Shown: piece after piece, positions 1 through 44,200 of the stretch
Layout: each line of letters starts with the position of its first letter
Position numbering within the stretch: position 1 is the first letter of the stretch
Assembly (NCBI GenBank): GCA_052034865.1
Contig: JBPOIC010000039.1
Span: 5,195 to 69,194, forward strand
DNA length: 64,000 nt
Direction: 5' to 3'
Source of the DNA: Myxococcota bacterium
GTDB taxonomy: Bacteria > UBA10199 > JADFYH01
The notes under the pieces: generated by a model
Seen by the model: the letters and a program-made list of their open reading frames with translations, nothing else
What the model was told of the DNA's origin: nothing
Database searches by the model: none
Translations under genes and position numbers: made by a program

Positions 1-866
1 AAAAAAAGATAGGTCGCTCCTCCTGTCCAGATCACACCGCAGAGCAAGGGCAGGCCGACCCATAAAACGCCTTTCGCATTTCTAAAATAAGCGAGCAAAA
101 TAATCAAAAGAGTGAAGACGACGAGAGCCGATACCCAGGTCATTTGATTTCCGAGATGCTCGACCTCCGCCATTGAGCGCAAGTGGTCGCCGGTATAGCC
201 GATCTGAAATTCCTGATCTGGATAGGTTTGATGGATGTCCGTTTCGAGGGATTTGATTTTTTCAACCAGGCTCTGCGAGCTATCCAGGTTTTGCTGATGT
301 CCTGACGTTTTGATTTTCAACACAACAAAGCGGCCGTCTTCCCCCGAAGGATTTTTTAAATTTCCAAAACTCTCGGTACGGGCTTCATATTTTTTTTGAA
401 TATCTATAAAGGTTAAATCGGGTCGGTCTTCTTCATCCGCAAAATCCATTAAACGGTTAAAGGTGGGTTTCACACCCTGAGCTTCCAGCTCCAGCGATCG
501 ATCCAGACGCTTCTCCATCTCCTTTAAATCAGAAAGATCCAGATAGAGCCATTTGCGGGCATCAAAAAATTCTATGGGACGCTCATAATCGACGTACTGA
601 ACGCCAGGTAATTTTTCGATCTTTAGGGTAAGATCGGTTGCAATCTGATGAGAAAAATCCGGATCTTTTGTCTCAAGGGTTACGACCAAAAATCCAAGTC
701 CTCCAAATGACTTTTGAAGTTGATGCAGCGCTTGAACGCTTTCAAAGCTCTGCGGCAATAGAGCAGCCAGATCGTTTTCGATTTTCAGTTTTTTGGCCTG
801 AAAAAACGAAAATAGAGTCACGAAGAGGCAAAGGATGAGGACTGTTTTAGGAAAGCGAATGGCCAT
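1..866 (-). CDS. MMPL/RND-superfamily membrane exporter, N-terminal part (gene runs off window start)
   Basis: Minus-strand ATG at 864-866 opens a frame reading MAIRFPKTVLILCLFVTLFSFF... that stays open to position 1. N-terminal TM helix, roughly 200-aa soluble loop, then TM helix LVVFTLLIILLAYF, typical of MMPL/HpnN-like transporters. Absent from the ORF track because no stop lies in the window. Confidence 0.5.
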   Translation of the reverse strand, partial: MAIRFPKTVLILCLFVTLFSFFQAKKLKIENDLAALLPQSFESVQALHQLQKSFGGLGFLVVTLETKDPDFSHQIATDLTLKIEKLPGVQYVDYERPIEFFDARKWLYLDLSDLKEMEKRLDRSLELEAQGVKPTFNRLMDFADEEDRPDLTFIDIQKKYEARTESFGNLKNPSGEDGRFVVLKIKTSGHQQNLDSSQSLVEKIKSLETDIHQTYPDQEFQIGYTGDHLRSMAEVEHLGNQMTWVSALVVFTLLIILLAYFRNAKGVLWVGLPLLCGVIWTGGATYLF

Positions 867-1057
867 TTCATAAAGTCGCGGACGCGTAAAATATTTCATC
901 ATTTTTTGGAGGTATCATGGGGCCCCCTGTTGATCAAGGGAGTGGAACAGGCTAAGGATGGGGTAGGCAGGATAGTCCTGCAAGATAAGATTGTCTTCAT
1001 ACGGTGGACGTCTGATGCTGGATTTTTCAAATTGATTTTCTTCAGACACAGCCTAAG

Positions 1058-1170: not shown

Positions 1171-2475
1171 ATGCAAACTCTTCTCACGCACCCCTCATCG
1201 CCTCCAGAAAAAAAGCTGAAAATCGCCCTGATCTGCGATTGGTATCTTCCTCAAATTGGAGGGATTGAGCTTCACATTCAGGATTTGGCGCGGGGTCTTC
1301 AAAAAAGAGGACATCAGGTCGAAGTGATCACCGCTTATCCTGGACCTCAATCTATTGATGGGATTTCCGTGCGTCGCCTTTTCTCCCGTCTGCTTCCAAA
1401 ATTTCATATTGCCATAAGCGCACGTCCTTTTCGCGAGCTGCGAAAGCTGTTTCAGAAAGAGCGCTATGATCTGGTGCATGCGCACGTGAGCGTGGTTTCT
1501 CCTTTGGCTTACGCAGGTGCCTACCTCGCTCAAAAGGCAAAAATTCCAACCGTGATTACGGCACATTCCCTTTTGGAGCGGGGAAGTTTTTTGAGTTTTA
1601 AATTTTTAAATCCTTTTTTGAAATGGAGTCGATGGAACGCTCTGTTCAGCGGGGTGAGCCGAGTGGTGGCGGAGGGTTTCAGCCGATCGCTTGGGCATCC
1701 GGTCGAAATCCTTCCAAACGGAACCGATCTTTCGCGCTGGAAAGCCAACCCCGAGCGATTTTCTTTGGCGTCTTTTTTATCCAGCGATTTGAATTCTTTT
1801 TTTTCACCTCAGGGCAATCGGCCGATTCGAATTACGTCCGTCATGCGCCTGACTCGAAAAAAGCGCGCCGATTTTTTGATTCGTGCGATTCCTCTCATCA
1901 ATGCGCGTCTTTCCCATTATCCAAAACCGGTGTTTACAATCATTGGCGAGGGGCCAGATCGTCGCGGGCTTGAGAAAAAAACTCGGGAATTAAAGATTCA
2001 GGATCAGGTTCAGTTTTTGGGATATTGTTCGCGCGAAAAAATTCAGGAAGTGTTCGATCAAACCGATGTCTTCTCTTCACCTACCTTAAAAGAAGCCTTT
2101 GGAATCGCTGTTCTGGAGGCACGGTGTGCCGGGCTTCCAGTGGTGGGTATGGAAGGGGGTGGGGTGAGCGATTTGATCGAATCCGGAAAAAATGGATTTT
2201 TGGTTAGAAATCTTGAAGAGTTTGTGCGGGCCCATGTCACTCTCATTCAGGATGCGGATTTAAGAGAGCAGATGTCTCAAAACACTCGGCAAGGGCTTGA
2301 GCGGTTTGGTTGGGATGAGATTTTAAATGACCATTTAAAGATTTATGAAAAAGCGAGGTTAAAATTTAATGAGCCTGAGCTTTTAAAGGAGGCGGGATTT
2401 GGAAAAGAAGATGTGTATCACCGTCGATATGGAACAGGATTGTCCACCTTACCTGACGACTTATCGGGGGGTTGA
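1171..2475 (+). CDS. Glycosyltransferase family 4 (GT-B, group 1)
   Basis: 434 aa. N-terminus KIALICDWYLPQIGGIELHIQDLARGL and C-terminal E-x7-E-like region (EAFGIAVLEARCAGLPVV) typical of GT4 retaining glycosyltransferases. Confidence 0.8.
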   Translation: MQTLLTHPSSPPEKKLKIALICDWYLPQIGGIELHIQDLARGLQKRGHQVEVITAYPGPQSIDGISVRRLFSRLLPKFHIAISARPFRELRKLFQKERYDLVHAHVSVVSPLAYAGAYLAQKAKIPTVITAHSLLERGSFLSFKFLNPFLKWSRWNALFSGVSRVVAEGFSRSLGHPVEILPNGTDLSRWKANPERFSLASFLSSDLNSFFSPQGNRPIRITSVMRLTRKKRADFLIRAIPLINARLSHYPKPVFTIIGEGPDRRGLEKKTRELKIQDQVQFLGYCSREKIQEVFDQTDVFSSPTLKEAFGIAVLEARCAGLPVVGMEGGGVSDLIESGKNGFLVRNLEEFVRAHVTLIQDADLREQMSQNTRQGLERFGWDEILNDHLKIYEKARLKFNEPELLKEAGFGKEDVYHRRYGTGLSTLPDDLSGG

Positions 2476-3127
2476 AGAAGGCACATTCAGGCTTTTAGAA
2501 CTTTTCGCCCGCGAAAAAATTCCCGCTACTTTTTTTACCACCGGCGATGTCGCCGAGCGCTATCCTTCTATCATTAAACAAATTGTCGATTTGGGCCACG
2601 AGTTGGGCTGTCATGGCTATTCTCACCGGCGCTTTGATCAGATGGATTTTTCTTTAGCGGCCGAAGAAATCAAGAGATCAACGGCTCTTCTTAGAAAATT
2701 TGCGACTGTCATTTCTTTTCGTGCGCCGAATCTGGAATTTCCACCGGCCTGTCTTTCACTGCTTGAAAAAGAAGGCTACCAACTCGATTCTTCCGAAGCA
2801 AAATACAAGTGGACTCATCGCCTTCGCTCAAAGCCTTTGACCTCTCTCACGCGCATTCCCGCCTCGGTGACTTCGTCGGTTTTACGTCTTCCCAAAACCG
2901 TGCGCACCTTTTGGATGGGTCGTCTCAAAAGTCCTGTCGTCCTGTTTGTGCATCCCTGGGAGTTTGTAGATTTCAGAAACGATCGGCGTTTGAGGCTGGA
3001 TTGTCGGTTTAAGACGGGAAAAATCGCTCTCGAGTGTCTTTCAGAAAATATACATTGGTTTAAGAAAAGAGATTTTGAGTTTTTAAAGATGAGGGACCTG
3101 CTTTCACTCCATCAGGGTTCTCGGTGA
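2411..3127 (+). CDS. Polysaccharide deacetylase (NodB-homology, CE4) family protein
   Basis: FFTTGDVAERYP...GHELGCHGYSHRRF matches CE4 His-His metal motif region. Overlaps end of GT4 gene. Start chosen at ATG 2411 (alternative 2399/2429). Confidence 0.7.
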   Translation: MCITVDMEQDCPPYLTTYRGVEEGTFRLLELFAREKIPATFFTTGDVAERYPSIIKQIVDLGHELGCHGYSHRRFDQMDFSLAAEEIKRSTALLRKFATVISFRAPNLEFPPACLSLLEKEGYQLDSSEAKYKWTHRLRSKPLTSLTRIPASVTSSVLRLPKTVRTFWMGRLKSPVVLFVHPWEFVDFRNDRRLRLDCRFKTGKIALECLSENIHWFKKRDFEFLKMRDLLSLHQGSR

Positions 3128-4090
3128 TCTTTTGCCGAAGAAAAGACCTTGATGTCTCAATCCCATCTTTAAAAACAGAAAGGATCCGACCAAAACAAAC
3201 GGCAGGGTGTGTGCCAGATGCATGGCCAGACCAATCGCCGAGGCCCCGCTCGTATCGATTCCCAAGTGCTGATAGGTCAAAAAAACTGCGCCTTCGAAAA
3301 TCCCAAAACGCCCGGGCGAAACGGGCAGGCTCATCGCCACCCCAAGCGCGAGATGAACCAGCAGGGCGCTAATCCACGGAAGCTGCAGATGAAAGCTTTT
3401 CTGAACCATCAAGATCGTTCCCACCTCCAGGCTTTTCATGGCAAAGGCAATAGCAATCGCCAGAAACATTTTTTTAAGATCCCTTAAATCCTGCAGGTGA
3501 TGGGCCCATTTCGAGAAAAAATGTCCGAGCCTTTTCCAGTGAGAATGCTCGATGACTTCAAGGGCGTGAGAGGAATTCCGGTAGCGATAAGCCAGTGCAA
3601 ACAAAATGACATAGGCCAAAAAGATAAGCCCGATACCGCCGCGGACAGGGATCTGAATCCAGTCGGGTAAAGGATAGAATAAGGCGATCATTCCAAACAT
3701 CACGATTTTTCCAAATCCGTCGGCCATCTGCTCAAGGGTGATGATGGACAGGGCCACCGATTTTCCAAGCTTTTCTTTTTCTCCCAACAGATAAATTCCG
3801 AATAAATGTCCTCCCCAAAACGGAACCGTGTTCACGAGCATGGCAAACACACTCACGACACTAAACATGTTTTGAAAACGAAGCTTGCGATTTTCTGGAA
3901 CAAAGAGGTTCCACTGGAAAGCGGTGAGAATCAGAATGAGGATGGGAAAAGAGCACCCGATCAGAAAATAAGCCAGATCCATTTGCTTGAGACTTGTCCA
4001 GAACTGATGAAAGTCGATCGCTCGGAATAAGAAAAAAATCAGAACGGCAGGGACTAAGAGGGAAAGAAGGATAAGAAGATATTTTTTCAT
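3104..4090 (-). CDS. Flippase-like / lysylphosphatidylglycerol-synthase TM-domain (UPF0104) membrane protein
   Basis: ORF 3104-4201. Real start probably MKKYLLILLSLLVPAVLIFF at 4088-4090. About 8 predicted TM helices. This family is commonly paired with GT4 enzymes for glycolipid synthesis. Confidence 0.55.
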   Translation of the reverse strand: MKKYLLILLSLLVPAVLIFFLFRAIDFHQFWTSLKQMDLAYFLIGCSFPILILILTAFQWNLFVPENRKLRFQNMFSVVSVFAMLVNTVPFWGGHLFGIYLLGEKEKLGKSVALSIITLEQMADGFGKIVMFGMIALFYPLPDWIQIPVRGGIGLIFLAYVILFALAYRYRNSSHALEVIEHSHWKRLGHFFSKWAHHLQDLRDLKKMFLAIAIAFAMKSLEVGTILMVQKSFHLQLPWISALLVHLALGVAMSLPVSPGRFGIFEGAVFLTYQHLGIDTSGASAIGLAMHLAHTLPFVLVGSFLFLKMGLRHQGLFFGKRSPRTLME

Positions 4091-4351
4091 AATTCCTGAA
4101 CACGAAGACAGAAGAAAAACCTCTACAATCAATCTTCCTGTAGGTCCGCAGGACCACGCCGCCCCGACGGGCACCCCTCCAAAGGAGGGGAATAAAAACA
4201 ATCAGAATTCAGAAGATAGAAGGTAGAATACAGAATCAATACCACTGGATTACTTCGTCGCTACAATCCTTGAAAAGACGCCCTTACCCTTACATCGTCA
4301 TTGCGGGCGACCGAAGGGAACGTGGCAATCCATCCACCCTTCATAAACGCT

Positions 4352-5392
4352 TCATCCCTGCTGTTTTCTCTTAGATACCTCTAAATTGCGCTTTTTCAAG
4401 ATCACTGGGACGTCATCGGTAAAATGCCGGAGGATGAACGGATAAATTTTTCCAAGTTTTTGAACTCTCCACTTCTCAACGATAAAAAAGGCGAGGGCTG
4501 CGTAGAACATCCCCAAAAAAAGATCGATCACATAATGATGCTGAAGGTAAACGGCCGCAAAACACATGAGCGAAAGATACACGCTTTGCGCGTATTTCCA
4601 TTTTCCAGGGTTTTGAAGGGCGTACAGCCAGCCCAAGCTTGCAAAGCCTGCGTGCATGGAAGGAATGGCCCCAAAAACGACGGGCGACATTCCATAAAAT
4701 CCGCTGGTGAGTTTAAATCCCAAAAGGGCATCGAAACGAATGAGTCCTCCCGGATCTCCAGCAATAGGATGGAGGGGCTGCATAAAACCGTAATGCGTCA
4801 CATACCACGGAGGAGCGGCTGGATAGAGAAAGTAGGTTGCAAAGGCCAGAAAATTCATCAGCAAAAAAGCAAGCGTGTAGCGACCCGCTTCTTCGGGTGA
4901 GCGCAAACGCCAGATCAGAAGAATCAAGAGAATCGCAATCGGCTCGTGGAGAATATAAATGATGCCACACAGCAGATCTAAAGCGGGATGCGTCCAGGCC
5001 AAAAAGAAATCATTGAGCAGGATTTTTTTTCCAGCGTGCATCCATCCAAACCAGGATAAATCGATCTGATAGGGTTCGCTAATGTGGATGGGTAAGATGA
5101 AATCGAAGGGAATGTAGCGTAAAAAATCGAAGACGATGTCTTTAATGACGACGGGAAGGGCGAGCAGGATAAAGATCCGGGTTTTGGGATGAACGAAATA
5201 AAGCGCAAGGACGAGTAGCGAGAACAAGACGTGATCGATTCGAAACTGACCCAGCAGAACGTGGGTTAGGCAGTAGGCGAGTGTAAATGCGGGCCAAAGG
5301 AATGCTTTCAGATAAACAAGTGAAGCTCCTTCCAGCCGGTCGGCCAAGAGTCTGTCATAAAGTAGTGAAACTGCGCGAAAAACACGGTCCAT
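4352..5392 (-). CDS. PAP2_3-type membrane phosphotransferase (Aur1/Ipt1 inositolphosphoceramide-synthase-like)
   Basis: 346 aa, polytopic membrane protein. Motifs YPAAPPWY, FGAIPSMHAGF and HHYVIDLFLG correspond to the PAP2 C2/C3 catalytic motifs of the PAP2_3 subfamily. Confidence 0.55.
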   Translation of the reverse strand: MDRVFRAVSLLYDRLLADRLEGASLVYLKAFLWPAFTLAYCLTHVLLGQFRIDHVLFSLLVLALYFVHPKTRIFILLALPVVIKDIVFDFLRYIPFDFILPIHISEPYQIDLSWFGWMHAGKKILLNDFFLAWTHPALDLLCGIIYILHEPIAILLILLIWRLRSPEEAGRYTLAFLLMNFLAFATYFLYPAAPPWYVTHYGFMQPLHPIAGDPGGLIRFDALLGFKLTSGFYGMSPVVFGAIPSMHAGFASLGWLYALQNPGKWKYAQSVYLSLMCFAAVYLQHHYVIDLFLGMFYAALAFFIVEKWRVQKLGKIYPFILRHFTDDVPVILKKRNLEVSKRKQQG

Positions 5393-5650
5393 AAAGAAAA
5401 GAGGGCGAGGGAGACCTTGCCCTTATAATTAGAAAGATTGTGAATCAGGCAGATAGCGGGTTCATCACACAAACTCAACCAAGAGTTTTATTGACAGTTT
5501 TTCAGGATCCAGTACTTATTCCCCCTAAAATCAATAAATCGTTCCGGTAGGAGTTGTGACAGTTCGTTTCGTCCCTCCCATGGTTTCCTCTTTAATTTCG
5601 GTGATACTGTACAATTGTTGTCATTCAGGATGTAGTTCCCGTTCATTGCT

Positions 5651-6919
5651 ATGACTCAACACGTGGATGATCTTGTAAAAAACCGCCACCTTCTTTCCCG
5701 TGAGGAAAGCTCCGATGTTTTTGCAAAGGCCTATGCCTTTCAAAAGGTGATCGGCTCGTTGCGTGAGACGGGAAGTTATCCTTATTTTCAACCTCTCTCC
5801 TTAAACCTCGGTCCCCAGGCCATTCTGAAAGGTAAAAAAGTCATCATGATGGGCTCTAATAATTATTTGGGGCTCACCACTCATCCCAAAGTTCGTGAAG
5901 CGGCCATTGAAGCCATTCAACGTTTTGGTACGAGCGCGACCGGTTCTCGTCTGCTCAACGGATCTTTGGAAATCCATGAGGCCTTCGAACACGAGATTGC
6001 CCAGTTTCTCAACAAAGAAGCGGCTCTGATTTTTACTACCGGCTATCAAGCCAATCTGGGCGCCATTACAGCCCTGGCAACCCACGGAGTTCAGGTTTAT
6101 CTCGATAAACAAAATCATGCGAGTTTGTATGATGCAGTCAAAATGAGTGAAGGACGTTGTGTGTTTTTCAAACACAACGATGCGGATCATTTAGATCGTC
6201 TGATGGCCCAGGCCCCTGCGGGAAGTCCGAAGCTGGTCGCGGTGGATGGGGTGTTCAGCATGGAAGGTGATCTCACTCCTCTTCCTAACATAGTCGAGGT
6301 TTGCAGGCGTCATCACGCGCGACTTTTGGTCGACGATGCCCATGCCCTGGGAGTTTTGGGAAAAAAAGGAGAAGGGACGGCAGGTCATTTTGGTTTGAGC
6401 TCAGAAGTCGATCTGATCATGGCGACCTTCTCAAAATCGCTGGCCTCAACTGGTGGTTATGTAGCCGGAGATTTTGCGATTGTGGATTATATCAAGCACC
6501 ATGGTCGCTCGATGATTTTTTCGGCTTCGATTACTCCTGCGAATCTAGCGGCGGCCCGCGAATCTCTTCAAATTCTCATTCAGGAGCCAGAACGCGTGAC
6601 GCAGGTGATGGAGAATGCTCGCGTTCTGAAAGAAGGATTGATCGCAATGGGATGGAGTGTTGGGGCTTCGCAAACACCGATCATCCCCGTACATATCGGA
6701 AATGATCTGACCGCCCTGACGCTTTGGAAAGATCTTCTGGAAGCCGGAGTCTATGTGAATCCGGTTGTCTATCCTGCGGTCGATCAGGACAAGGCGATTT
6801 TACGCGTGAGTACAATGACGACGCATACGCCCCAACATCTGGAACAGGCTCTTGAGGCGTTTCGTCTAGTTGGAGAGCGCTATCATCTTCTTGAAAAACA
6901 GGCGAGTCATGGGGCTTGA
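5651..6919 (+). CDS. spt: Alpha-oxoamine synthase family PLP enzyme, serine palmitoyltransferase-like
   Basis: 422 aa. GSNNYLGL, DDAHALGVLG and FSKSLASTGGYVAG (PLP-binding Lys) typical of Spt/BioF/Kbl family. Assignment to Spt rests on gene neighbourhood. Confidence 0.6.
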   Translation: MTQHVDDLVKNRHLLSREESSDVFAKAYAFQKVIGSLRETGSYPYFQPLSLNLGPQAILKGKKVIMMGSNNYLGLTTHPKVREAAIEAIQRFGTSATGSRLLNGSLEIHEAFEHEIAQFLNKEAALIFTTGYQANLGAITALATHGVQVYLDKQNHASLYDAVKMSEGRCVFFKHNDADHLDRLMAQAPAGSPKLVAVDGVFSMEGDLTPLPNIVEVCRRHHARLLVDDAHALGVLGKKGEGTAGHFGLSSEVDLIMATFSKSLASTGGYVAGDFAIVDYIKHHGRSMIFSASITPANLAAARESLQILIQEPERVTQVMENARVLKEGLIAMGWSVGASQTPIIPVHIGNDLTALTLWKDLLEAGVYVNPVVYPAVDQDKAILRVSTMTTHTPQHLEQALEAFRLVGERYHLLEKQASHGA

Positions 6920-8042
6920 GTCTCTTTCTGTCCAGCCTGTGCGCACCCGCCTGGAGCTCAAACGTTTTATTCAACTTCCCTACCGTCTCTATCAAAACGA
7001 TCCCCATTGGATTGCCCCACTTTATTCCGAGCGCAAAGAAATCCTTCATCCTCAAAAAAATCCTTTTTATCAGCATGCGATCGTGGAGCTTTTCCTCGCG
7101 GTTCGCGAGGGAAAAGAAGTGGGGAGAATCTCTGCTCAGATCGATTTTGAGTATGAGAAATGTCATGGGGAACGGGTGGGGCATTTTGGATTTTTTGAGT
7201 GCGAACAGGATCCTGAAATTGCCGCTGCCCTTTTTCAGGCGGCTGAAAATTTTTTAAAACAAAACCAGGCGACACGCATCGTGGGGCCTTTCAGTTTTTC
7301 GATCAATGAAGAATCGGGTCTTTTAATCGATGGTTTTGATCAACCTCTCATGACGATGATGCCTTACAATCCTCCCTACTATGCCGATCTCATCGAAGGC
7401 GTAGGGTATCGCAAGATCAAGGATTTATATGCGTGGCATTACCCGGTGGGCGAAATTCCCGAACAGCCGCGACTGATTGCGGAAGAGGTGAGGAAATTGC
7501 CGGATCTGATCCTGCGCACCTTTGATAAAAAGAATTTCAAACGCGATATGAACATTATCATCGATATTTTCAATTCCGCCTGGTCAGAAAACTGGGGCTT
7601 TGTGCCCTTGACTTCGGCCGAAGTTGACAAGATGGCAAAGGATCTTAAACTCTTTATCGATTACGAAGGGGCATTTATTGCCGAATATAAAGGGATTCCC
7701 ATCGCGATGGCGCTTGCGATGCCCAATCTGTATGAATTGATTGCAGGCATGAAGGGCCGTCTGTTTCCCTTCGGTATCTTTAAACTCCTGTGGCGCCTGT
7801 TTCGAAAGCAATATCGCTCTGCACGCCTGATGCTTCTGGGAATCAAAAAGGAATACCGAAGTTCCATGCTTGGATTTTTAAGCACCCTGCTCTACGTTGA
7901 AATTCATCGGCGTGGGCTTGAGCGGGGCTATGAGTGGGGAGAGCTTTCCTGGACCCTCGAAGACAATCGCAAAGTGAATACCGGCATCGAGTTTATGGGA
8001 GGAAAGAAATACAAGACGTTTCGAATTTATGAGAAGGGGTAG
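6909..8042 (+). CDS. GNAT-like acyltransferase (FemAB/BioF2-like fold), candidate bacterial ceramide synthase
   Basis: About 378 aa. Start overlaps spt stop, suggesting translational coupling. C-terminal region KKEYRSSMLGFLSTLLYVEIHRRGLERGYEWGELSWTLEDNRKVN resembles GNAT motif A/B region. Functional call is by context only. Confidence 0.4.
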   Translation: MGLESLSVQPVRTRLELKRFIQLPYRLYQNDPHWIAPLYSERKEILHPQKNPFYQHAIVELFLAVREGKEVGRISAQIDFEYEKCHGERVGHFGFFECEQDPEIAAALFQAAENFLKQNQATRIVGPFSFSINEESGLLIDGFDQPLMTMMPYNPPYYADLIEGVGYRKIKDLYAWHYPVGEIPEQPRLIAEEVRKLPDLILRTFDKKNFKRDMNIIIDIFNSAWSENWGFVPLTSAEVDKMAKDLKLFIDYEGAFIAEYKGIPIAMALAMPNLYELIAGMKGRLFPFGIFKLLWRLFRKQYRSARLMLLGIKKEYRSSMLGFLSTLLYVEIHRRGLERGYEWGELSWTLEDNRKVNTGIEFMGGKKYKTFRIYEKG

Positions 8043-8294
8043 GAAGGGAAAGGTGGGGATTTTCATCGTCTCACCCTCTCTTTTAAGAATGCGACGAAGT
8101 ATCTGTCCTTTGACTCTTCGACGAGTTCAAAGCTCAAGGCGAACGACTTAGGATGTCCCATGTGTTTTCTGACTTTTGATTCCTGGATGGTTTCTCTCCC
8201 TTCGGTCGATCGCAAAGACGCAATGATCGTCCTTCTAAATTCTGTCTCCTGATTTTTCCACTCTCCCGTTGCTGGGACGAAGTACCCGAAGGGT

Positions 8295-8394
8295 GGAGGG
8301 TGAGGGGAAATTAAATTCTCACCCTCCCTCCAAATCCCGCCCATCCAGGGCGGGAGGGCGTTGCGGACGAGGCATGCCTCGCCCCTACAAATAA
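8295..8394. promoter_or_regulatory. Cluster of three consecutive stem-loops ending in second copy of the 21-nt motif, upstream of the CerR-like gene
   Basis: ggagggtgag(8295-8304)/ctcaccctcc(8318-8327) is a 10-bp perfect stem. cccgccc/gggcggg lies at 8336-8355. gaggcatgcctc palindrome plus ggcatgcctcgcccctacaaa lies at 8369-8391. Confidence 0.45.
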
Positions 8395-8457
8395 TTTAGG
8401 TTTAACCATGAGAGCAATCACACAGGATTGCCAATCACTGCATTTCGCTCGCAAACT

Positions 8458-9441
8458 ATGAACATCTTCCTCACAGGTGCTTCTGGGTTTTTAGGCTTTC
8501 ATGTCGCCAGGCTTTTGGTGGAGCGGGGCCATCGCGTGATTGCCCTTGTTCGTCCGACCAGCCAGCGAAAGGAACTTAAGAAACTTCCCATTCAATGGAT
8601 CAAGGGAAGCCTGTCTGACCTTCGAGCCCTAAGACAAAGCCCAGAGCCTTTGGAGGCCGTGATTCATATCGCAGGGATTGTGAAGGCCTTGTCTAAAGAA
8701 GCCTTCTTTAAAACCAATGCACAGGGGACAGAGAATCTCGTTCAGGAAATTCTCTCTCGTCCCACTCTTCCTAAAGTTTTCATACAGATTTCAACCCTTG
8801 CGGTTCATAGTCCTACCCGCGATGGTCCTGATTTTTGTCTTCCTGCAGATCAATGCCACCCCGTCAGTCATTATGGCGAAAGCAAATTGGCTGGAGAGAA
8901 GAGCCTGGGTTTACTTAAAGAAAAAGTTCGTAGTGTTATTTTGAGACCTCCTGTGATTTATGGCCCCCAGGATAGGGAAGTCCTGCTCCTTTTTAAGGCA
9001 GCGCAAAAAGGTTTTCTGCCGCTTTACCGACGCGGGCAAAGCCAGTTTTCCATGTGTTACGTCACCGATGTTGCCCAGGCGATTATAACCCTTTTGGAAA
9101 ATCCTCCTCAGAAAGATGAAATATTTTGTCTGGATGATGGTGTCGTGCACACCTGGAAGAGTGTTGCTCAGGTCATTGCAAAGGCGATGAAGCGAAATCC
9201 GTTGCTACTTTCCATTCCACATTCCCTTTACTCCCTCGCGGCCCTGTGCTCGCAGGGCTATGCTCAGCTAAGACGTCAGCCGGTGGTTTTTACCGTCAAC
9301 AAGATGGAAGAAATTTCACAGCCCAGCTGGGTGTGTGGATATCAAAAATTGAATGAAAAAACAGGCTGGCGGCCTCAAGTGGATTTAAAACGGGGAATTG
9401 ATTCGACCTTGAGGTTTTATCGGGAGATGAAGTGGCTTTAA
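8458..9441 (+). CDS. NAD-dependent epimerase/dehydratase (extended SDR) family protein, candidate ceramide reductase CerR-like
   Basis: MNIFLTGASGFLGFHVARLLVERGHRVIALVRP is a Rossmann GxxGxxG. YGESK matches the SDR YxxxK region. Start set at ATG 8458 (ORF opens 8428). Confidence 0.65.
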   Translation: MNIFLTGASGFLGFHVARLLVERGHRVIALVRPTSQRKELKKLPIQWIKGSLSDLRALRQSPEPLEAVIHIAGIVKALSKEAFFKTNAQGTENLVQEILSRPTLPKVFIQISTLAVHSPTRDGPDFCLPADQCHPVSHYGESKLAGEKSLGLLKEKVRSVILRPPVIYGPQDREVLLLFKAAQKGFLPLYRRGQSQFSMCYVTDVAQAIITLLENPPQKDEIFCLDDGVVHTWKSVAQVIAKAMKRNPLLLSIPHSLYSLAALCSQGYAQLRRQPVVFTVNKMEEISQPSWVCGYQKLNEKTGWRPQVDLKRGIDSTLRFYREMKWL

Positions 9442-9639
9442 TGGGACTTTCTCACTGGGCGATCTGCTTCGTTAAAATTTCTTCAGAAAATCCTCACGTA
9501 CATCCCTGTACTCTCTGGTTTTCTTCAGGAATTTCGCCTTGCATTTCATCCCATTGAGAAAATCCTATTTAAATTTATTCCAGGATTTTCCTCATTTTAG
9601 AAAGAGGATGATTTCACCCTTCTTGACCGTCCTTTTTGA

Positions 9640-10917: not shown

Positions 10918-11032
10918 ACGGGAGTACAAAACTGAAGATTGATTGAAGAAAAAGTAACCTCGAAAAAAAAATCATTTTTAAAATTCAAACTCATGAATTG
11001 ACGGGCTGACCCTGTCTCGATACGGAAAACAA

Positions 11033-11461
11033 ATGACTTCCAAAGACCTCGCTAAAAAAATCGCCACGATCGCCAGCGAAATGAAGGCCGATCAAATCAA
11101 AATTCTCGATCTTCAAAAACTCTCCAGCTTTACAGACTTTTTCGTGATCTGTTCGGGTACTTCCGATCGCCAGCTCCAGGCCATTGCCGACAAAGTTGTT
11201 TTGGAGCTTAAAAAAGAAGAGATTCGTCCTTACTCCACCGAGGGGTATGAACAGGGACAATGGGTACTTGTGGATTATCCAGGTGTTGTTCTTCATATTT
11301 TTACCGAAGAGGCCCGAGCACATTATGATCTGGAAGGATTTTGGGAAAAAGCTCCGCGACCGCGGGTGAGCCTTTCCCGTCCCAAAAAACTTAAAAATCT
11401 GAAACCTCTAAAAAAAACTACGAAAACTCCGGCTCGAAAACGAACAACGACGGCCAAATAA
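11033..11461 (+). CDS. rsfS: Ribosome silencing factor RsfS (Iojap family) with Lys-rich C-terminal tail
   Basis: LSSFTDFFVICSGTSDRQLQAIADKV...VLVDYPGVVLHIF is the RsfS signature. Extra C-terminal RPKKLKNLKPLKKTTKTPARKRTT basic tail. Confidence 0.85.
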   Translation: MTSKDLAKKIATIASEMKADQIKILDLQKLSSFTDFFVICSGTSDRQLQAIADKVVLELKKEEIRPYSTEGYEQGQWVLVDYPGVVLHIFTEEARAHYDLEGFWEKAPRPRVSLSRPKKLKNLKPLKKTTKTPARKRTTTAK

Positions 11462-11526
11462 GCGAAATCCGACATAATCCCATCTTTGATTTGTCTCTTC
11501 TTTAAGTTCCCTCAGGCAACCCTTCC

Positions 11527-12009: not shown

Positions 12010-12069
12010 GATGGTTTTTTCCAGAACTTTAATCTTTTCAACTTTCCTGTGAGTCGATAAAGGAATTGC

Positions 12070-13930: not shown

Positions 13931-13938
13931 ATCGATCA

Positions 13939-41290: not shown

Positions 41291-44200
41291 TCATTTTTTC
41301 TCTTCCATTTGCTGCACCAGTTGATCTGCAAGCTCTGAAATCGTTGGTCCTTTTAAAAGAAGGGCAATCGGAAGTTTGGTCTGAAGCCCTTGCTCGATTT
41401 CATTTTTGAGCTCAATGGCCATAAGAGAATCGAGTCCCAAATGATTGAGCGATTGCCCCGGCTTTAAACTTTCGGATGTCGATCCCAAAACACGCGCGAG
41501 TTTTTCAGAAATCACCGAAAGAAGCCATTCCCGGCGCTTTTCAGGCGGTTTCTTCAAATAAATTTCATATAAATCCTGTGGAGCTAAACTCGAAGGCACT
41601 CGATTTTGGGTCGTCTCAGGAGATTCCAGTTTTTTTAGCCAAAGCCTTCGTGATTCGGGCAAATTCTCCTGAAGTTTTTTTTGATCCCACGAAACAACAA
41701 TCGGATTGCGTGTCGAGAATCCCGGTGGATCCAACAAAAGTTTCTCCAAAACTCCAAATCCCTGATCCAATGAAAGAGGGTGAATGCCCCAGGCTTGCAT
41801 CCGTTCCACCGTTTTTTCATGGGTTGCCATTCCGACTTTGGCCCACGGTCCCCACACAATGCTTTGTGAGACAAGACCTTCCCGATTTCGCGCATGCGCC
41901 AGTCCATTCAAAAACGCATTGGCAGCGCTGTAGTTTGACTGTGCGTAAGATCCCATCGTGCCTGAAAGTGATGAAAAAAGAATAAAGTAATCCAGTGGGA
42001 TGGAGCGCGTGGCCTCATGCAGGTAAAAGGCTCCCATCGCCTTGGAAGTAAACACGCTTTGAAAATTTTCTTTAGTTTGATGCAGCAAAACTCCATCTTT
42101 CAGAACTCCTGCGAGATGAAAAATTCCTCGCAAGGGCGGAAGATTTTTTTGAAGGACATCGAGTAACGAATCTACCTCCGATCTTTTTGAAAGATCGGCC
42201 GAATGGACAAGCACGTGCGCACCTTCATTTTTCCAGCGGACCATTTCCTGAAGCTGATGTTCGGTGGGAGATTTTCGACTCACCAGAAAGAGATGACGGG
42301 CGCCTTTTGAAATCATCCATCGGGCAAGCTCAAAGCCCAAACCTCCCAGACCTCCGGTGATCAGATAACTGGCATCCCTTGAAAATGAGAACTCATGGGG
42401 TTTTGCCGCGAATGTTTTCGGGCGTTCGTTGAAAGTGAGAACAATTTTTCCCGTATTTTTACGCTGGGCCATGAAGCGAAAAGCATAAGGCGCGTCGCTG
42501 ATGGGAAAGGTTGTATGAGGGATTGGTTTTAAATGTTGATGTTCAAATTGAGAGATGAGTTCCGTGAAGAGTCGATGGGTAAGATCCTGGCGCTCGCGGA
42601 AAATGCGGTCCAAATCGATTGCAAAATAGGAAAGACTTTTCTGAAACGGTAAAAGCCCCAAGGCATGATTTTGATAGATATCGCTTTTTCCGATTTCCAG
42701 AAATCGTCCAAAAGGAGCAAGGGTTTGCAGGCTTTTGGAAATAAACTCCCCGGGAAGCGAGTTGAGCACAAGATCGACTCCGCGATCTTGAGTGAGAGTG
42801 AGAATCTCTTCGGCAAACTTTGTCGTGCGTGAATCAAAAACATGTTCCACACCCAGCGATTTTAAATACGCGCGTTTTTCATCGCTGCCTGCAGTGGCGA
42901 AGATTTCCAATCCTGTTTGTTGAGCGAGTTGAACGGCGGCCAATCCAACGCCACCGGCACCCGCATGAATGAGAATTTTTTCTTTTTTTCGCATGCGTCC
43001 CAGATCATGCAGGGCATGGGTGGCGGTCAGAAATGCCACTGGAACACTGGCCGCTTCTTCAAAGTTTAAATGTGCAGGTTTTAGCACAACGAGTGGAGCC
43101 GCGGTCGTGACGAAGTTTCCAAAGCTGTAGGGTGCAATTGCGATGACTTCATCGCCGACTTTAAAACCTTTCACGCGTTCGCCCAGACGCACAATTTTTC
43201 CCGAACACTCAGCGCCCAAAGGAACGGTCGTCTCACGCGCGCCGGGGTAAAGGCCTAGCGCTTTCAGGACGTCGCTGAAATTAAGACCCGCCGCTCTGAC
43301 GACAATTTCCACTTCATGATCCCCTGGCGCACGACGCACAACCGGTCGAAATCCCATCCCGTCCAGACTTCCGGACTGAACTATTTCCAGGCGATAGGCA
43401 TCGAAATCCTGAATGGATTTGTTTTGCTGTGGAGTCTTCGCAGGTGTTTCCGATGCAATTTTCAGACGGCACACCCATCGTCTGTTTTCGCGAATTAGAA
43501 ATTCATCTTCGTGCGTCGGCCGCATCAGCGTTTGAGTGAGGAGGGTGATTTCTGAAGAGGTCGGATGAGAAGGCAGATCAATGAGACAGAGAGAGAGTTC
43601 GGGGTGCTCCAGCTGTACGCTTCGAAGCATTCCCCAAAGGGCGGTCGCACTGACACCAGGATTTTCTGGGTCGAACGGATGCGCCTGGGCGCCCTGAGTG
43701 ACCACAGTCAGCTTTGGGTAAGAGGGGAGATCGGCTTGCAGGAGCGTTTTCAAAAAGGCGAGAAAATCGCCACAGATTTTTTCAGCCTCCGATATCCCTT
43801 CGAAAGATAAAGGATCGCAGAGAGAATCCATTTCGATCAAAAGATGCTGGCATTCAGACTGTCCCACATGAAACAGGTTTTTTGCATCAGACTCAGACGA
43901 CTCATTTTGGATCTCATCCTGAAAACTTTTCCAACTCTTCGTTAAGACACTCTGTCCCTTTTCTCGAAGTTCTTTTGCAAGAGGACTCGCTTCGTTGGCT
44001 GTCAGCACCAGCCAGGATTCAATTACCTTTACCTCCATCGGAAGAGGTGTTTCATCGATTTCCCATTCCTGCTCAAAAATCAGATTCTCGTTTGACGATT
44101 GGCTTGCCTTTGAAATCTTTCCCAGCCCCGTCAGATGAAGACCCGAAATTATTCCCAAAGTCTTTCCTTCGACATCAAAAAGAAAAATATCTGCCACGAT

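What the first reader, a model, noticed from the sequence alone, without database searches (positions are those of the whole stretch)
4352..9441. Candidate bacterial ceramide/sphingolipid pathway: PAP2_3 transferase, Spt, GNAT-like acyltransferase, CerR-like SDR
Seen: an alpha-oxoamine synthase (5651-6919) is translationally coupled to a roughly 378-aa GNAT-like acyltransferase (6909-8042). About 415 bp downstream is an extended-SDR epimerase/dehydratase-type gene (8458-9441). Divergently upstream is a PAP2_3 (Aur1/Ipt1-like) polytopic phosphotransferase (4352-5392).

Established: the convergently evolved bacterial ceramide route described in Caulobacter uses three enzyme types. These are Spt, a GNAT-family ceramide synthase (bCerS) acting on 3-ketosphinganine, and an NAD-dependent epimerase/dehydratase-family ceramide reductase (CerR). 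Aur1/Ipt1-type PAP2 enzymes add phospho-headgroups to ceramide.

Inference: this is a compact four-gene sphingolipid module with a head-group transferase. No dedicated ACP or acyl-ACP synthetase is adjacent, so the acyl donor is unclear.
Basis: partly seen in the sequence, partly recalled or inferred. Interest (0 to 1): 0.8.

Follow-up and report, generated by a model that had tools for sequence, protein, structure and literature searches.

The report
Bacterial ceramide cluster with head-group genes
These genes are a bacterial ceramide (sphingolipid) pathway of a known kind, but they sit inside a larger conserved cluster that probably adds a phosphate-linked amino-sugar head group and moves the lipid across the envelope, and that outer part has not been described.

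Summary

- **5651-6919** groups with characterised serine palmitoyltransferases, not BioF or Kbl.
- **6909-8042** has no Pfam or NCBIfam hit. It folds as a tandem GNAT and is 42% identical to E. coli YghO, which the literature lists as the homologue of Caulobacter ceramide synthase CC_1154 (bCerS).
- **8458-9441** is a full-length homologue of the CerR-position reductases of E. coli and Sphingomonas.
- **4352-5392** is an Aur1/BT_1522-like PAP2_3 enzyme with its catalytic His-His-Asp residues intact.

The "compact four-gene module" is too small. Nine related loci, counting this window, keep the PAP2_3 gene next to an MprF-type flippase-like gene. Each also has a GT4 glycosyltransferase. A de-N-acetylase and an MMPL transporter are seen in most, where the DNA held reaches far enough. 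Gene orders differ between loci. In this window these genes lie at 1-4201.

A FAAL-ACP or polyketide synthase block abuts cerR in six relatives. Here it lies 32 kb away.

The most likely product is a (dihydro)ceramide carrying a phospho-linked, glucosamine-bearing head group. The bridging alcohol is unknown. The core is a known kind; the head-group and export arm is a new variant.

The parts
1..902 (-). N-terminal 300 codons of an MMPL (RND-type) lipid transporter. The gene runs off the window start. It is a candidate exporter of the sphingolipid.
   Evidence: 45% identical over 291 aa to the 833-aa MMPL protein (PF03176) at the same position in L010. MMPL genes were also detected in related loci L091, L093, L094 and L095. 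An MmpL next to spt in Myxococcus has been proposed as a sphingolipid exporter.
1171..2475 (+). GT4 retaining glycosyltransferase. It probably adds a HexNAc (likely GlcNAc) to the lipid head group.
   Evidence: Pfam Glycos_transf_1 119 bits and Glyco_transf_4 93 bits. The best NCBIfam hits are the UDP-GlcNAc enzymes BshA (104 bits) and MshA (85 bits), all below curated cut-offs. 45% identical to the syntenic GT4 of L010.
2411..3127 (+). NodB-type (Polysacc_deac_1) de-N-acetylase. The start is uncertain (2399, 2411 or 2429). Its stop region overlaps the convergent flippase-like gene.
   Evidence: PF01522, 67 bits. 64% identical to the syntenic gene in L002. In paralogous modules of L090 and L094 a PIG-L-family deacetylase takes this place.
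3104..4132 (-). LPG_synthase_TM / UPF0104 flippase-like membrane protein, of the MprF flippase-domain and GpgF type. The start probably lies between 4090 and 4132. The longest ORF starts at 4201.
   Evidence: PF03706, 119 bits. 38% identical to the syntenic gene in L010, with the alignment starting at residue 30. It is adjacent to the PAP2_3 gene in all nine close loci.
4352..5392 (-). PAP2_3 (Aur1/Ipt1/BT_1522-like) phospho-head-group transferase, predicted to act on ceramide.
   Evidence: PF14378, 70 bits. NCBIfam PhinosDhcerSyn is the only hit: 172 bits over nearly the full length, below the 480-bit cut-off. The catalytic S245/H247 and H285/H286..D290 are invariant in 30 homologues. The homologue is fused to a fatty-acid hydroxylase domain in L002. 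In distant lineages it lies in AOS-bCerS-SDR-PAP2_3 operons (L160, L166, L124).
5651..6919 (+). Serine palmitoyltransferase (Spt), of the CFB/delta type.
   Evidence: The best NCBIfam models are SPT(CFB) 455 bits and SPT(beta) 388 bits; bioF scores 379. PDB: S. multivorum SPT 360 bits versus best BioF 222 and best Kbl 216. The NJ clade with S. multivorum SPT has 100% bootstrap. The PLP lysine motif FSKS is conserved.
6909..8042 (+). Bacterial ceramide synthase (bCerS / YghO family), a tandem-GNAT N-acyltransferase.
8458..9441 (+). CerR-like extended SDR, a 3-keto(dihydro)ceramide reductase.
   Evidence: PF01370, 107 bits. GxxGxxG at residue 7 and YGESK at residue 139. 28-33% identity over 97-98% coverage (128-152 bits) to the reductases of the E. 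coli, Sphingomonas and Streptomyces sphingolipid loci; the best PDB SDR scores only 70 bits. Weak NDUFA9 similarity, 39 bits.
41291..49942 (-). Possible accessory gene (low confidence): a 2883-aa single-module PKS with domains FAAL-ACP-KS-AT-DH-ER-KR-ACP. It is a candidate supplier of acyl-ACP to Spt or bCerS.
   Evidence: Domain order. The N-terminal FAAL-ACP is 47-49% identical to stand-alone FAAL-ACP genes that abut cerR in L002, L010, L011, L089 and L091 (L095 has the PKS instead). It is 32% identical to the E. coli sphingolipid-locus fatty acyl-AMP ligase.

Best explanation
The locus encodes synthesis, head-group decoration and probably export of a complex bacterial sphingolipid.

**Core steps.** Homology to characterised enzymes is shown; chemistry is inferred.
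1. Spt (5651-6919) condenses serine with a long-chain acyl thioester to give 3-ketosphinganine.
2. The translationally coupled tandem-GNAT bCerS (6909-8042) N-acylates it.
3. The CerR-like SDR (8458-9441) reduces the 3-keto group to give dihydroceramide.

No desaturase or hydroxylase gene is in the window. The base is therefore predicted to be saturated and unhydroxylated, unless such genes lie elsewhere in the genome.

**Head-group steps.** These are inferred from conserved, rearranged gene neighbourhoods and from analogy.
4. The PAP2_3 enzyme (4352-5392) transfers a phospho-alcohol head group from a glycerophospholipid to ceramide, as Aur1 and BT_1522 do.
5. The GT4 enzyme (1171-2475) adds GlcNAc.
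6. The NodB-type deacetylase (about 2411-3127) converts GlcNAc to GlcN.
7. The MprF/GpgF-like flippase (3104 to about 4132) moves the lipid to the outer leaflet of the inner membrane.
8. The MMPL transporter (1-902, truncated by the window edge) extracts it towards the outer membrane.

The bridging alcohol (inositol or glycerol) is not determined. The order of steps 4-6 is not determined either.
For: **Core**
- AOS ranks with SPTs.
- ORF 6909-8042 is a tandem GNAT. It is 42.5% identical over 98% coverage to E. coli YghO and 35% to the Sphingomonas gene inside the Spt-ACP-CerR-LptF2G2 locus. PMC9386255 lists 'aca: CC_1154, yghO ECD_02850, Swit_3908...' as the dihydroceramide N-acyltransferase genes.
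- The SDR is a full-length homologue of the E. coli, Sphingomonas and Streptomyces locus reductases, E about 1e-38 to 1e-47.
- Identical AOS-GNAT-SDR operons occur in Streptomyces and in many MAGs.

**Head group and export**
- PAP2_3 has an intact catalytic triad, and its only NCBIfam hit is PI-DHC synthase.
- In the window, L002/L003, L010, L011, L090, L091, L093, L094 and L095, the PAP2_3 gene is always next to an LPG_synthase_TM gene. A GT4 gene is detected in every one, though only at the edge of the stretch held for L011 (23%). A NodB or PIG-L deacetylase is seen in six of the nine, and an MMPL gene in six. Gene orders differ between loci.
- Five of these loci also carry Spt-bCerS-CerR, and several carry Lipid_DES and FA_hydroxylase genes.
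- L090 has two paralogous modules, one with a NodB and one with a PIG-L deacetylase. Two unrelated deacetylase families filling the same slot points to the same chemical step.
- Distant lineages have AOS-bCerS-SDR-PAP2_3 operons.
- The GT4 + deacetylase + UPF0104 flippase logic is experimentally established for GlcN-PG (GpgSDF).
- An MmpL gene next to spt in Myxococcus has been proposed as a sphingolipid exporter.
Against: - No enzyme here reaches an NCBIfam equivalog cut-off: SPT 455 < 640, PI-DHC synthase 172 < 480, GpgS 42 < 480.
- I could not compare 6909-8042 with the Caulobacter bCerS sequence itself. The link runs through E. coli YghO and a paper's homologue list.
- The YghO family is large (more than 5,900 clusters). 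Many members, for example in Myxococcota and in L001/L014, have no Spt within 10 kb, so family membership alone does not fix the function.
- The full head-group arm is seen only in one fairly narrow clade (PAP2_3 at least 43% identical). Part of that synteny could be inherited rather than selected.
- No inositol-phosphate synthase or PI synthase gene is in the window or in the relatives' flanks.
- bCerS and CerR are separated by a 415-bp non-conserved spacer here.
- No lipid data exist for this uncultured organism.
Confidence: 0.7

Rival explanations
1. The right arm (Spt, bCerS, CerR) makes ceramide. The left arm (PAP2_3, flippase-like, deacetylase, GT4, MMPL) is a separate glycerolipid-modifying system. 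It could be a GlcN-phosphatidylglycerol or aminoglycolipid pathway like GpgSDF/HexSDF plus a lipid phosphatase. On this view it merely shares an 'envelope lipid' island with the ceramide genes.
For: GpgSDF acts on phosphatidylglycerol, not ceramide. The GT4 of one L090 module matches the GpgS model over its full length, 133 bits. Loci L093 and L094 show the arm without Spt genes on their short contigs. PAP2-superfamily proteins are often plain lipid phosphatases.
Against: The arm travels with Spt-bCerS-CerR in five independent loci with different gene orders. The PAP2_3 domain is fused to a fatty-acid hydroxylase and sits beside a Lipid_DES (sphingolipid desaturase-type) gene in L002. Unrelated lineages have AOS-bCerS-SDR-PAP2_3 operons. 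The window's own GT4 matches GpgS only weakly, 42 bits over the C-terminal part.
Confidence: 0.2
2. The AOS-GNAT-SDR trio makes a sphingolipid-like N-acyl amino-alcohol from a substrate other than serine. Candidates are alanine or glycine (1-deoxy or 1-desoxymethyl bases), cysteate (sulfonolipids) or lysine.
For: The AOS falls below every curated SPT cut-off. The Black Sea study reports 1-deoxy- and Lys-ceramides. It proposes that divergent Spt-like proteins use other amino acids.
Against: The AOS groups tightly with serine-using S. multivorum SPT (100% bootstrap). It scores 360 bits against that SPT versus 239 and 233 for the cysteate acyltransferases. A PAP2_3 head-group transferase needs the C1 hydroxyl, which only a serine-derived base provides.
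Confidence: 0.08
3. The AOS is a BioF/Kbl enzyme of biotin or threonine metabolism, and the neighbouring genes are unrelated.
For: The bioF model still scores 379 bits and a BioF/Kbl subfamily model 365 bits, as expected within one enzyme family.
Against: Both are below their cut-offs and below the SPT models. BioF and Kbl fall outside the SPT clade. No bio or tdh genes are adjacent. The gene is coupled to a YghO/bCerS homologue.
Confidence: 0.02

Closest known systems
Caulobacter crescentus ceramide pathway: Spt CCNA_01220, bCerS CCNA_01212/CC_1154, CerR CCNA_01222. Its E. coli counterpart is ECD_02850-02854, including yghO.
   Same: The same three enzyme families are present. The GNAT is 42.5% identical to YghO and the SDR is 28% identical to the E. 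coli locus reductase. The pathway logic is the same: condensation, N-acylation, keto reduction.
   Different: The Spt is of the CFB/delta type, not the 'Rhodobacteria' type. No stand-alone AcpR or AasR genes and no LptF2/G2 paralogues are adjacent. Instead there are an MMPL transporter and a flippase-like gene. Head-group genes are PAP2_3, GT4 and a deacetylase rather than CpgABC or Sgt1/2.
Sphingobacterium multivorum serine palmitoyltransferase (PDB 3A2B, 8GUH)
   Same: It is the best solved-structure match: 360 bits, with an ungapped alignment over 374 residues and the PLP lysine motif conserved. The two form a clade with 100% bootstrap.
   Different: Only about 42% identical over the trimmed alignment. 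The score is below the NCBIfam SPT(CFB) equivalog cut-off (455 versus 640).
Bacteroides thetaiotaomicron BT_1522 phosphoinositol-dihydroceramide synthase, and yeast AUR1 IPC synthase
   Same: PAP2_3 domain, near full-length match to the BT_1522 model (172 bits), and conserved His-His-Asp residues. The expected mechanism is transfer of a phospho-alcohol from a glycerophospholipid to ceramide. A 41%-identical Anaeromyxobacter homologue lies near a PIP-synthase-like gene and a GtrA gene, as BT_1522 does.
   Different: Far below the equivalog cut-off of 480. No MIPS, PIP synthase or PIP phosphatase genes are nearby. It is paired with a flippase-like gene, GT4 and a deacetylase, which the Bacteroides cluster lacks. 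Donor specificity (PI, PG or PE) is unknown.
Pseudomonas aeruginosa GpgSDF (GlcN-phosphatidylglycerol) and Clostridioides difficile HexSDF
   Same: The same three-part logic is present: a GT4 transferase adds GlcNAc, a deacetylase converts it to GlcN, and a UPF0104/LPG_synthase_TM protein is the presumed flippase.
   Different: The window's GT4 is not a GpgS equivalog (42 bits). The deacetylase here is Polysacc_deac_1, whereas GpgD is described as COG3233. The acceptor proposed here is a sphingolipid. The genes are not one operon but two convergent units.
Eukaryotic GPI-anchor core steps PIG-A and PIG-L (GlcNAc transfer to an inositol lipid, then de-N-acetylation)
   Same: The chemistry would be the same if the PAP2_3 product is inositol-phosphoceramide. 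PIG-L-family deacetylases occupy the deacetylase slot in the paralogous modules of L090 and L094.
   Different: There is only a faint PIGA-domain hit, 22 bits against a 27-bit cut-off. The window itself has a NodB-type deacetylase, not PIG-L. Inositol is unproven.
Pseudomonas fluorescens SgaAB (PKS-derived sphingolipids), and the AasR/AcpR acyl-ACP supply of Rhodobacteria
   Same: A single-module PKS or FAAL-ACP is linked to a stand-alone AOS in six relatives. The FAAL is 32% identical to the fatty acyl-AMP ligase of the E. coli sphingolipid locus.
   Different: In this window the PKS lies 32 kb from spt. No thioesterase or PPTase homologue was found elsewhere in the window. A functional link is not tested.

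Membership tests
Bacterial serine palmitoyltransferase (alpha-oxoamine synthase family) | PLP-dependent AOS fold with the Schiff-base lysine | tested here: met
   PF00155, 226 bits. The 'FSKS' lysine motif aligns with S. multivorum SPT.
Bacterial serine palmitoyltransferase (alpha-oxoamine synthase family) | Groups with characterised SPTs rather than BioF, Kbl, ALAS or CqsA | tested here: met
   PDB bit scores: SPT 360, 271 and 259; a Thermus KBL/BioF enzyme 265; BioF 222; Kbl 216; ALAS 208; CqsA 122. The NJ clade with S. multivorum SPT has 100% bootstrap, with only 11 sequences.
Bacterial serine palmitoyltransferase (alpha-oxoamine synthase family) | Reaches a curated NCBIfam SPT equivalog score | tested here: not met
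   SPT(CFB) 455.5 < 640. SPT(beta) 388 < 500. SPT(alpha) 301 < 670. bioF 379 < 426 is also not met.
Bacterial serine palmitoyltransferase (alpha-oxoamine synthase family) | Condenses L-serine with a long-chain acyl thioester | not testable with these tools
   This needs an enzyme assay or heterologous expression.
bCerS / YghO / CC_1154 bacterial ceramide synthase | Full-length homology to validated or literature-assigned family members | tested here: met
   42.5% identity over 98% coverage to E. coli YghO, 35% to the Sphingomonas locus gene, 40% to Streptomyces, and 28-30% to Prevotella and Phocaeicola. yghO is listed with CC_1154 in PMC9386255. The Caulobacter sequence itself was not available.
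bCerS / YghO / CC_1154 bacterial ceramide synthase | GNAT acyl-CoA N-acyltransferase fold | tested here: met
bCerS / YghO / CC_1154 bacterial ceramide synthase | Genomic linkage to spt and cerR | tested here: met
   11-nt overlap with spt. The same order occurs in L002, L010, L011, L091, L095, Streptomyces L007 and about 17 of the 80 nearest loci.
bCerS / YghO / CC_1154 bacterial ceramide synthase | N-acylates 3-ketosphinganine or sphinganine | not testable with these tools
   This needs biochemistry.
CerR ceramide reductase (NDUFA9-like extended SDR) | Extended SDR with NAD(P)-binding GxxGxxG and catalytic YxxxK | tested here: met
   GASGFLG at residue 7 and YGESK at residue 139. PF01370, 107 bits.
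CerR ceramide reductase (NDUFA9-like extended SDR) | Homology to the reductases in validated sphingolipid loci | tested here: met
   128-152 bits at 97-98% coverage to the E. coli, Sphingomonas and Streptomyces locus SDRs, versus at most 70 bits to any PDB SDR. NDUFA9 hits score 34-39 bits. The Caulobacter CerR sequence itself was not compared.
CerR ceramide reductase (NDUFA9-like extended SDR) | Periplasmic location, as reported for Caulobacter CerR | tested here: inconclusive
   The Rossmann motif starts at residue 7, so there is no room for a cleavable signal peptide. The same is true of the E. coli and Sphingomonas homologues.
Aur1 / BT_1522 inositol-phosphoceramide synthase (PAP2_3) | PAP2_3 domain with the catalytic His-His-Asp residues | tested here: met
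   PF14378, 70 bits. S245/H247 and H285/H286/D290 are invariant in a 30-sequence alignment.
Aur1 / BT_1522 inositol-phosphoceramide synthase (PAP2_3) | Reaches the curated PI-DHC synthase equivalog score | tested here: not met
   172 bits against a cut-off of 480.
Aur1 / BT_1522 inositol-phosphoceramide synthase (PAP2_3) | The organism can make the phosphatidylinositol donor (MIPS, PIP synthase) | tested here: inconclusive
   None was found in the 64-kb window or in the flanks of L002, L090 and L091. The rest of the genome was not available.
GpgSDF / HexSDF aminoglycolipid module | GT4, deacetylase and UPF0104 flippase-like gene encoded together | tested here: met
   Window 1171-4201. The set recurs in L002, L010, L090, L091, L094 and L095.
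GpgSDF / HexSDF aminoglycolipid module | The glycosyltransferase is a GpgS equivalog | tested here: not met
   NF053787 scores 42 bits, over the C-terminal 111 residues only, against a cut-off of 480.

The most novel reading that the evidence does not exclude
The cluster builds a bacterial counterpart of the GPI-anchor core on a sphingolipid, namely glucosaminyl-inositol-phosphoceramide. An Aur1-like enzyme makes inositol-phosphoceramide. A PIG-A-like GT4 adds GlcNAc. A de-N-acetylase (NodB-type here, PIG-L-type in paralogous modules of relatives) exposes the amine. An MprF-type flippase and an MMPL pump then carry the lipid to the cell surface. This would name the first candidate sphingolipid flippase and a non-Lpt export route. 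The acyl chains might come from the FAAL-ACP/PKS block.
Probability: 0.15. Interest if true: 0.85.

Novelty: new variant of a known kind. Interest (0 to 1): 0.5.

Why it matters
The three-enzyme ceramide core is now textbook for bacteria, and Spt-like proteins (often with bCerS and CerR beside them) have been reported from MAGs of 38 phyla. That part is ordinary.

What is still open, and said to be open by the groups who defined the pathway, is how bacterial sphingolipids cross the inner membrane and reach the outer membrane outside the alpha- and gammaproteobacteria. It is also open which head groups environmental bacteria attach.

This cluster and its relatives put four things beside the ceramide genes:
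- a candidate flippase (MprF/GpgF-type);
- a candidate exporter (MMPL);
- a GlcNAc-transferase and deacetylase pair;
- an Aur1-like transferase.

The gene set is small enough to express in E. coli. That makes both questions directly testable and predicts a lipid class, a GlcN-bearing phosphosphingolipid, that I found no report of in the searchable literature.

Tried and rejected
**Dead ends**
- Pfam, NCBIfam and a PDB sequence-profile search gave nothing for 6909-8042. Only fold search and tblastn against annotated plasmid records connected it to YghO.
- Foldseek against AFDB50 was not available.
- The Stankeviciute et al. 2022 paper (PMC8891067) is not held. The ISME paper's supplements hold no sequences. 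CCNA_01212 and CCNA_01222 could therefore not be aligned directly.
- Exact look-up of the window's own bCerS found no contig on record.

**Rejected readings**
- BioF or Kbl.
- Sulfonolipid cysteate acyltransferase: 239 versus 360 bits.
- GpgS orthology of the GT4.

**No signal**
- The 415-bp bCerS-CerR spacer has GC-rich palindromes. It is not conserved in L010, and there is no Rfam match anywhere in 1-12000. Its 17-mer has one weak second copy.
- Promoter- and terminator-like sites in 900-9700 are no more frequent than in shuffled sequence.
- No desaturase, hydroxylase, PIG-L or OmpA homologue occurs elsewhere in the window. The only ACP-like match to the E. coli locus ACP is a weak one to the PKS's C-terminal ACP domain (E = 6e-5).
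- A literature search for GlcN-containing bacterial phosphosphingolipids found nothing relevant.

Full report
**1. Observation**

The four ORFs are present exactly as described. The same products (346, 422, 377 and 327 aa) are called on the public 72,040-bp NCBI contig from which the window comes.

The second gene's ATG (6909) overlaps the stop codon of the first (TGA, 6917-6919) by 11 nt. A 415-bp spacer separates it from the SDR gene. A 258-bp divergent region separates the PAP2_3 gene from the AOS gene.

Pfam confirms PAP2_3, Aminotran_1_2 and Epimerase domains. The middle protein has no Pfam or NCBIfam hit at all, even at E = 10 against Pfam.

**2. The alpha-oxoamine synthase is an Spt**

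Its best NCBIfam models are the two serine palmitoyltransferase equivalogs, CFB-type at 455 bits and beta-type at 388 bits. These rank ahead of bioF (379) and glycine C-acetyltransferase (329). None reaches its curated cut-off.

Against all PDB sequences, the top hits are:
- Sphingobacterium multivorum SPT, 360 bits;
- Sphingomonas wittichii SPT, 271 bits;
- a Thermus KBL/BioF enzyme, 265 bits;
- S. paucimobilis SPT, 259 bits;
- cysteate acyltransferases, 239 and 233 bits;
- BioF, 222 bits;
- Kbl, 216 bits.

The alignment to S. multivorum SPT is ungapped over 374 residues and keeps the PLP lysine motif.

I built a small neighbour-joining tree of 11 sequences, 379 columns and 200 bootstraps. 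It puts the window protein, two relatives and S. multivorum SPT in one clade with 100% support. E. coli BioF, E. coli Kbl and the Thermus enzyme fall outside the SPTs.

The Geiger group's paper divides bacterial SPTs into two groups. The Bacteroidetes/delta group has no dedicated ACP. The 'Rhodobacteria' group needs AcpR and AasR. This protein belongs to the first group.

**3. The middle gene is a bCerS/YghO-family N-acyltransferase**

The family is large, with more than 5,900 clusters at 90% identity. Sources mostly leave it unnamed or call it 'GNAT family N-acetyltransferase'.

A tblastn search of annotated plasmid records gave the functional link:
- 42.5% identity over 98% of its length to E. 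coli YghO;
- 35% to a Sphingomonas parapaucimobilis 'N-acetyltransferase';
- 40% to a Streptomyces GNAT;
- 28-30% to Prevotella and Phocaeicola genes.

The contexts support the link.
- **E. coli:** yghO lies beside a fatty acyl-AMP ligase, an epimerase-family SDR, an ACP, an AOS and LptF/LptG paralogues.
- **Sphingomonas:** the homologue lies in a locus with an SDR, an ACP, the Spt gene, LptF/LptG paralogues and a desaturase.
- **Streptomyces:** AOS, GNAT and SDR form an overlapping three-gene operon.

PMC9386255 lists 'aca: CC_1154, yghO ECD_02850, Swit_3908, DRN02_007910...' as the acyl-CoA N-acyltransferase genes for dihydroceramide synthesis. CC_1154 is, from my own knowledge of the locus-tag correspondence, CCNA_01212, which other papers use as the Caulobacter CerS reference. 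A 2026 preprint draws the same locus for Caulobacter, S. wittichii and E. coli UTI89.

Thirty of the 44 residues invariant among close relatives are also invariant in YghO and in the Sphingomonas and Streptomyces proteins.

I could not obtain the Caulobacter sequence itself, so membership rests on this chain.

**4. The SDR is CerR-like**

It has GxxGxxG at residue 7 and YGESK at residue 139.

It aligns over 97-98% of its length with the reductases of the three reference loci:
- E. coli, 28% identity and 128 bits;
- Sphingomonas, 29% and 130 bits;
- Streptomyces, 33% and 152 bits.

Its best match to any solved SDR is only 70 bits. NDUFA9 subunits appear at 34-39 bits, in line with the published note that CerR resembles NDUFA9.

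**5. How common the trio is**

A scan of one genome per species returned the 80 nearest bCerS homologues. All but one (Labilithrix luteola) are MAGs. They are labelled Deltaproteobacteria, Pseudomonadota, Myxococcota, Chloroflexota, Gemmatimonadota, Acidobacteriota or Planctomycetota. The best is 65% identical, so the source species is not among the species-representative genomes scanned.

An AOS gene lies directly upstream in about 17 of the 80. A homologous SDR lies directly downstream in about 30.

Many Myxococcota homologues have neither within 10 kb. One homologue (L001/L014) sits beside a saccharopine-dehydrogenase-like gene. The family may therefore be functionally broader than ceramide synthesis.

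Spt-like proteins, often with bCerS and CerR encoded nearby, have already been reported from MAGs of 38 phyla, raising the number of potential sphingolipid-producing phyla to 40. The core is therefore not new.

**6. The PAP2_3 gene and the left arm**

The PAP2_3 protein's only NCBIfam hit is the Bacteroides phosphoinositol-dihydroceramide synthase model. The match is near full length at 172 bits, against a cut-off of 480. BT_1522 was itself found through its similarity to yeast AUR1. The C2 (PSMH) and C3 (HHYxxD) catalytic residues are invariant in 30 homologues.

Left of it the window encodes, in order:
- an LPG_synthase_TM/UPF0104 flippase-like protein;
- a Polysacc_deac_1 deacetylase;
- a GT4 glycosyltransferase;
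- at the very edge, the first 300 codons of an MMPL transporter.

This set recurs. The PAP2_3 gene is next to the flippase-like gene in every locus below.

| Locus | Gene order |
|---|---|
| L002/L003 (bCerS 67% identical) | GT4, deacetylase, flippase, FA_hydroxylase::PAP2_3 fusion, Lipid_DES desaturase, AOS, bCerS, SDR |
| L010 | MMPL, GT4, deacetylase, flippase, PAP2_3, AOS, bCerS, SDR |
| L011 | flippase, PAP2_3, desaturase, AOS, bCerS, SDR; a weak GT4 match (23%) lies at the edge of the stretch held |
| L091 | [SDR, bCerS, Spt, desaturase], PAP2_3, flippase, OmpA, second PAP2_3, GT4, deacetylase, MMPL |
| L095 | the same gene set in yet another order |
| L093 | the arm (GT4, PAP2_3, flippase, MMPL) on a short contig |
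| L094 | the arm (two PAP2_3, flippase, GT4, PIG-L, MMPL) on a short contig |
| L090 | two paralogous modules: GT4, PAP2_3, PIG-L, flippase; and FA_hydroxylase, PAP2_3, flippase, NodB deacetylase, GT4 |

Thus every locus whose PAP2_3 is at least 43% identical, and which has usable flanks, keeps the PAP2_3-flippase pair (nine loci, counting the window). A GT4 gene is detected in all nine. A deacetylase is detected in six of the nine and an MMPL gene in six. Where one is not seen, the stretch of DNA held is short or ends nearby.

Gene order and orientation differ between these loci, which argues for selection rather than simple inheritance. Two unrelated deacetylase families fill the same slot, which argues that the step is de-N-acetylation of a GlcNAc-lipid.

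More distant PAP2_3 homologues (33-40%) mostly stand alone. Three (L124, L160, L166) lie in AOS-bCerS-(SDR)-PAP2_3 operons. This ties the PAP2_3 family to ceramide independently.

**7. Mechanistic reading of the arm**

A GT4 that adds GlcNAc, a deacetylase and a UPF0104 flippase-like protein together form the experimentally defined GpgSDF system for glucosaminyl-phosphatidylglycerol. HexSDF in C. difficile is analogous.

The window's GT4 is not a GpgS equivalog (42 bits). The GT4 of L090's PIG-L module does match the GpgS model over its full length (133 bits).

I therefore infer this sequence:
1. PAP2_3 makes a phospho-alcohol ceramide.
2. GT4 and the deacetylase convert it to a GlcN-bearing lipid.
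3. The flippase-like protein translocates it.
4. The MMPL pump exports it.

Steps 3 and 4 touch an open question. The Klein laboratory states that no sphingolipid flippase or transporter was known in 2024. In 2026 it proposed that Myxococcus uses an MmpL encoded next to spt.

The bridging alcohol is undetermined.
- **For inositol:** there is the BT_1522 model hit. In addition, a 41%-identical Anaeromyxobacter homologue lies near a PIP-synthase-like CDP-alcohol transferase and a GtrA gene, as BT_1522 does.
- **For glycerol:** there is the GpgS-like GT4 in L090.
- **Against inositol:** there are no inositol synthesis genes in any flank examined.

**8. Acyl donor**

In six relatives (L002, L010, L011, L089, L091, L095) a block abuts the 3' end of cerR. 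It contains a FAAL-ACP didomain protein and/or a large PKS, together with a thioesterase. Some also have a PPTase or Wzz and SLBB export proteins.

In this window the counterpart lies 32 kb away: SLBB (51280-52458), Wzz (49995-51254) and a 2883-aa FAAL-ACP-KS-AT-DH-ER-KR-ACP synthase (41291-49942).

The PKS's FAAL-ACP part is 47-49% identical to the relatives' stand-alone proteins. It is 32% identical (E = 1e-77) to the fatty acyl-AMP ligase of the E. coli sphingolipid locus. That ligase is the AasR type shown to load AcpR for Spt. PKS-plus-AOS sphingolipid synthesis has a precedent in Pseudomonas fluorescens SgaAB.

This is a lead, not a result. A CFB/delta-type Spt may simply use acyl-CoA.

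**9. What is absent**

The window has no Lipid_DES, fatty-acid hydroxylase, PIG-L or OmpA homologue and no separate ACP gene. No known RNA family matches 1-12000. The bCerS-CerR spacer is not conserved in L010. Promoter and terminator scans are at chance level.

**10. Verdict**

The core is a new member of a known pathway. The conserved head-group, flippase and MMPL arm, with a possible FAAL-ACP/PKS acyl supply, is a new variant. I found no description of it in the searchable literature.

My confidence differs by part:
- about 0.85 that the three core genes make (dihydro)ceramide;
- about 0.65 that the PAP2_3 enzyme decorates it;
- about 0.5 that the GT4, deacetylase, flippase and MMPL genes act on the same lipid.

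Noticed in passing
window 41291-52458 (- strand): This stretch encodes SLBB (Wza-like), Wzz/GNVR and a 2883-aa single-module PKS (FAAL-ACP-KS-AT-DH-ER-KR-ACP). In six relatives the equivalent block, with a thioesterase and in some a PPTase, directly abuts cerR. Here it is separated from cerR by proA, pgm, citrate synthase and the nuo operon.
   Followed up: partly
L090 636-11760: Two paralogous head-group modules lie side by side. One is GT4, PAP2_3, PIG-L, flippase. The other is FA_hydroxylase, PAP2_3, flippase, NodB deacetylase, GT4. A Lipid_DES-type desaturase and an unannotated 549-aa protein sit between them. The first GT4 matches the GpgS (GlcNAc-PG synthase) model over its full length (133 bits).
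   Followed up: partly
L092 (Anaeromyxobacter oryzae AP025591.1) 7657-17684: A PAP2_3 homologue (41% identical) lies near several lipid-related genes. These are a PIP-synthase-like CDP-alcohol transferase, GtrA, an inositol-dehydrogenase-like GFO/IDH/MocA protein, a class-III aminotransferase, a B12 radical-SAM enzyme and an LPG_synthase_TM::radical-SAM fusion. The set hints at an amino-inositol lipid pathway.
   Followed up: partly
window 6909-8042, and L005 8980-10122 (E. coli yghO): The YghO/bCerS family has more than 5,900 clusters at 90% identity. The window's member gets no hit from Pfam-A or NCBIfam. Only some relatives carry a faint PF00583 hit, so routine annotation leaves the family unnamed.
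   Followed up: yes
L001 / L014 (CP070770.1) 6848-9134: A 51%-identical YghO-family gene sits directly after a saccharopine-dehydrogenase-like gene, with no Spt within 8-10 kb. Many Myxococcota homologues likewise lack a nearby Spt. The family may include enzymes with other substrates.
   Followed up: no
window 8043-8457: The 415-bp spacer between bCerS and CerR holds GC-rich palindromes, for example CCCGCCCATCCAGGGCGGG and GACGAGGCATGCCTCG, and a GGGTGGAGGGTGAGGGG motif. A weak second copy of that motif lies at 50978-50994. The spacer is not conserved in L010, and there is no Rfam match.
   Followed up: partly
window 27559-28866 (- strand): A 435-aa ORF with no Pfam hit lies on the opposite strand inside the nuo (complex I) gene run at 19.4-36 kb.
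   Followed up: no
window 59267-62000: G+C drops to 0.36 against a window average of about 0.46. The low-GC stretch holds a sulfatase-family gene and a second GT4 glycosyltransferase, next to an HTH (transposase-like) gene at 58197-59108. It may be an acquired island.
   Followed up: no
L002/L003 3018-4146: A HicA/HicB toxin-antitoxin pair and two small ORFs are inserted between the flippase-like gene and the PAP2_3 fusion gene. The cluster is otherwise intact.
   Followed up: no
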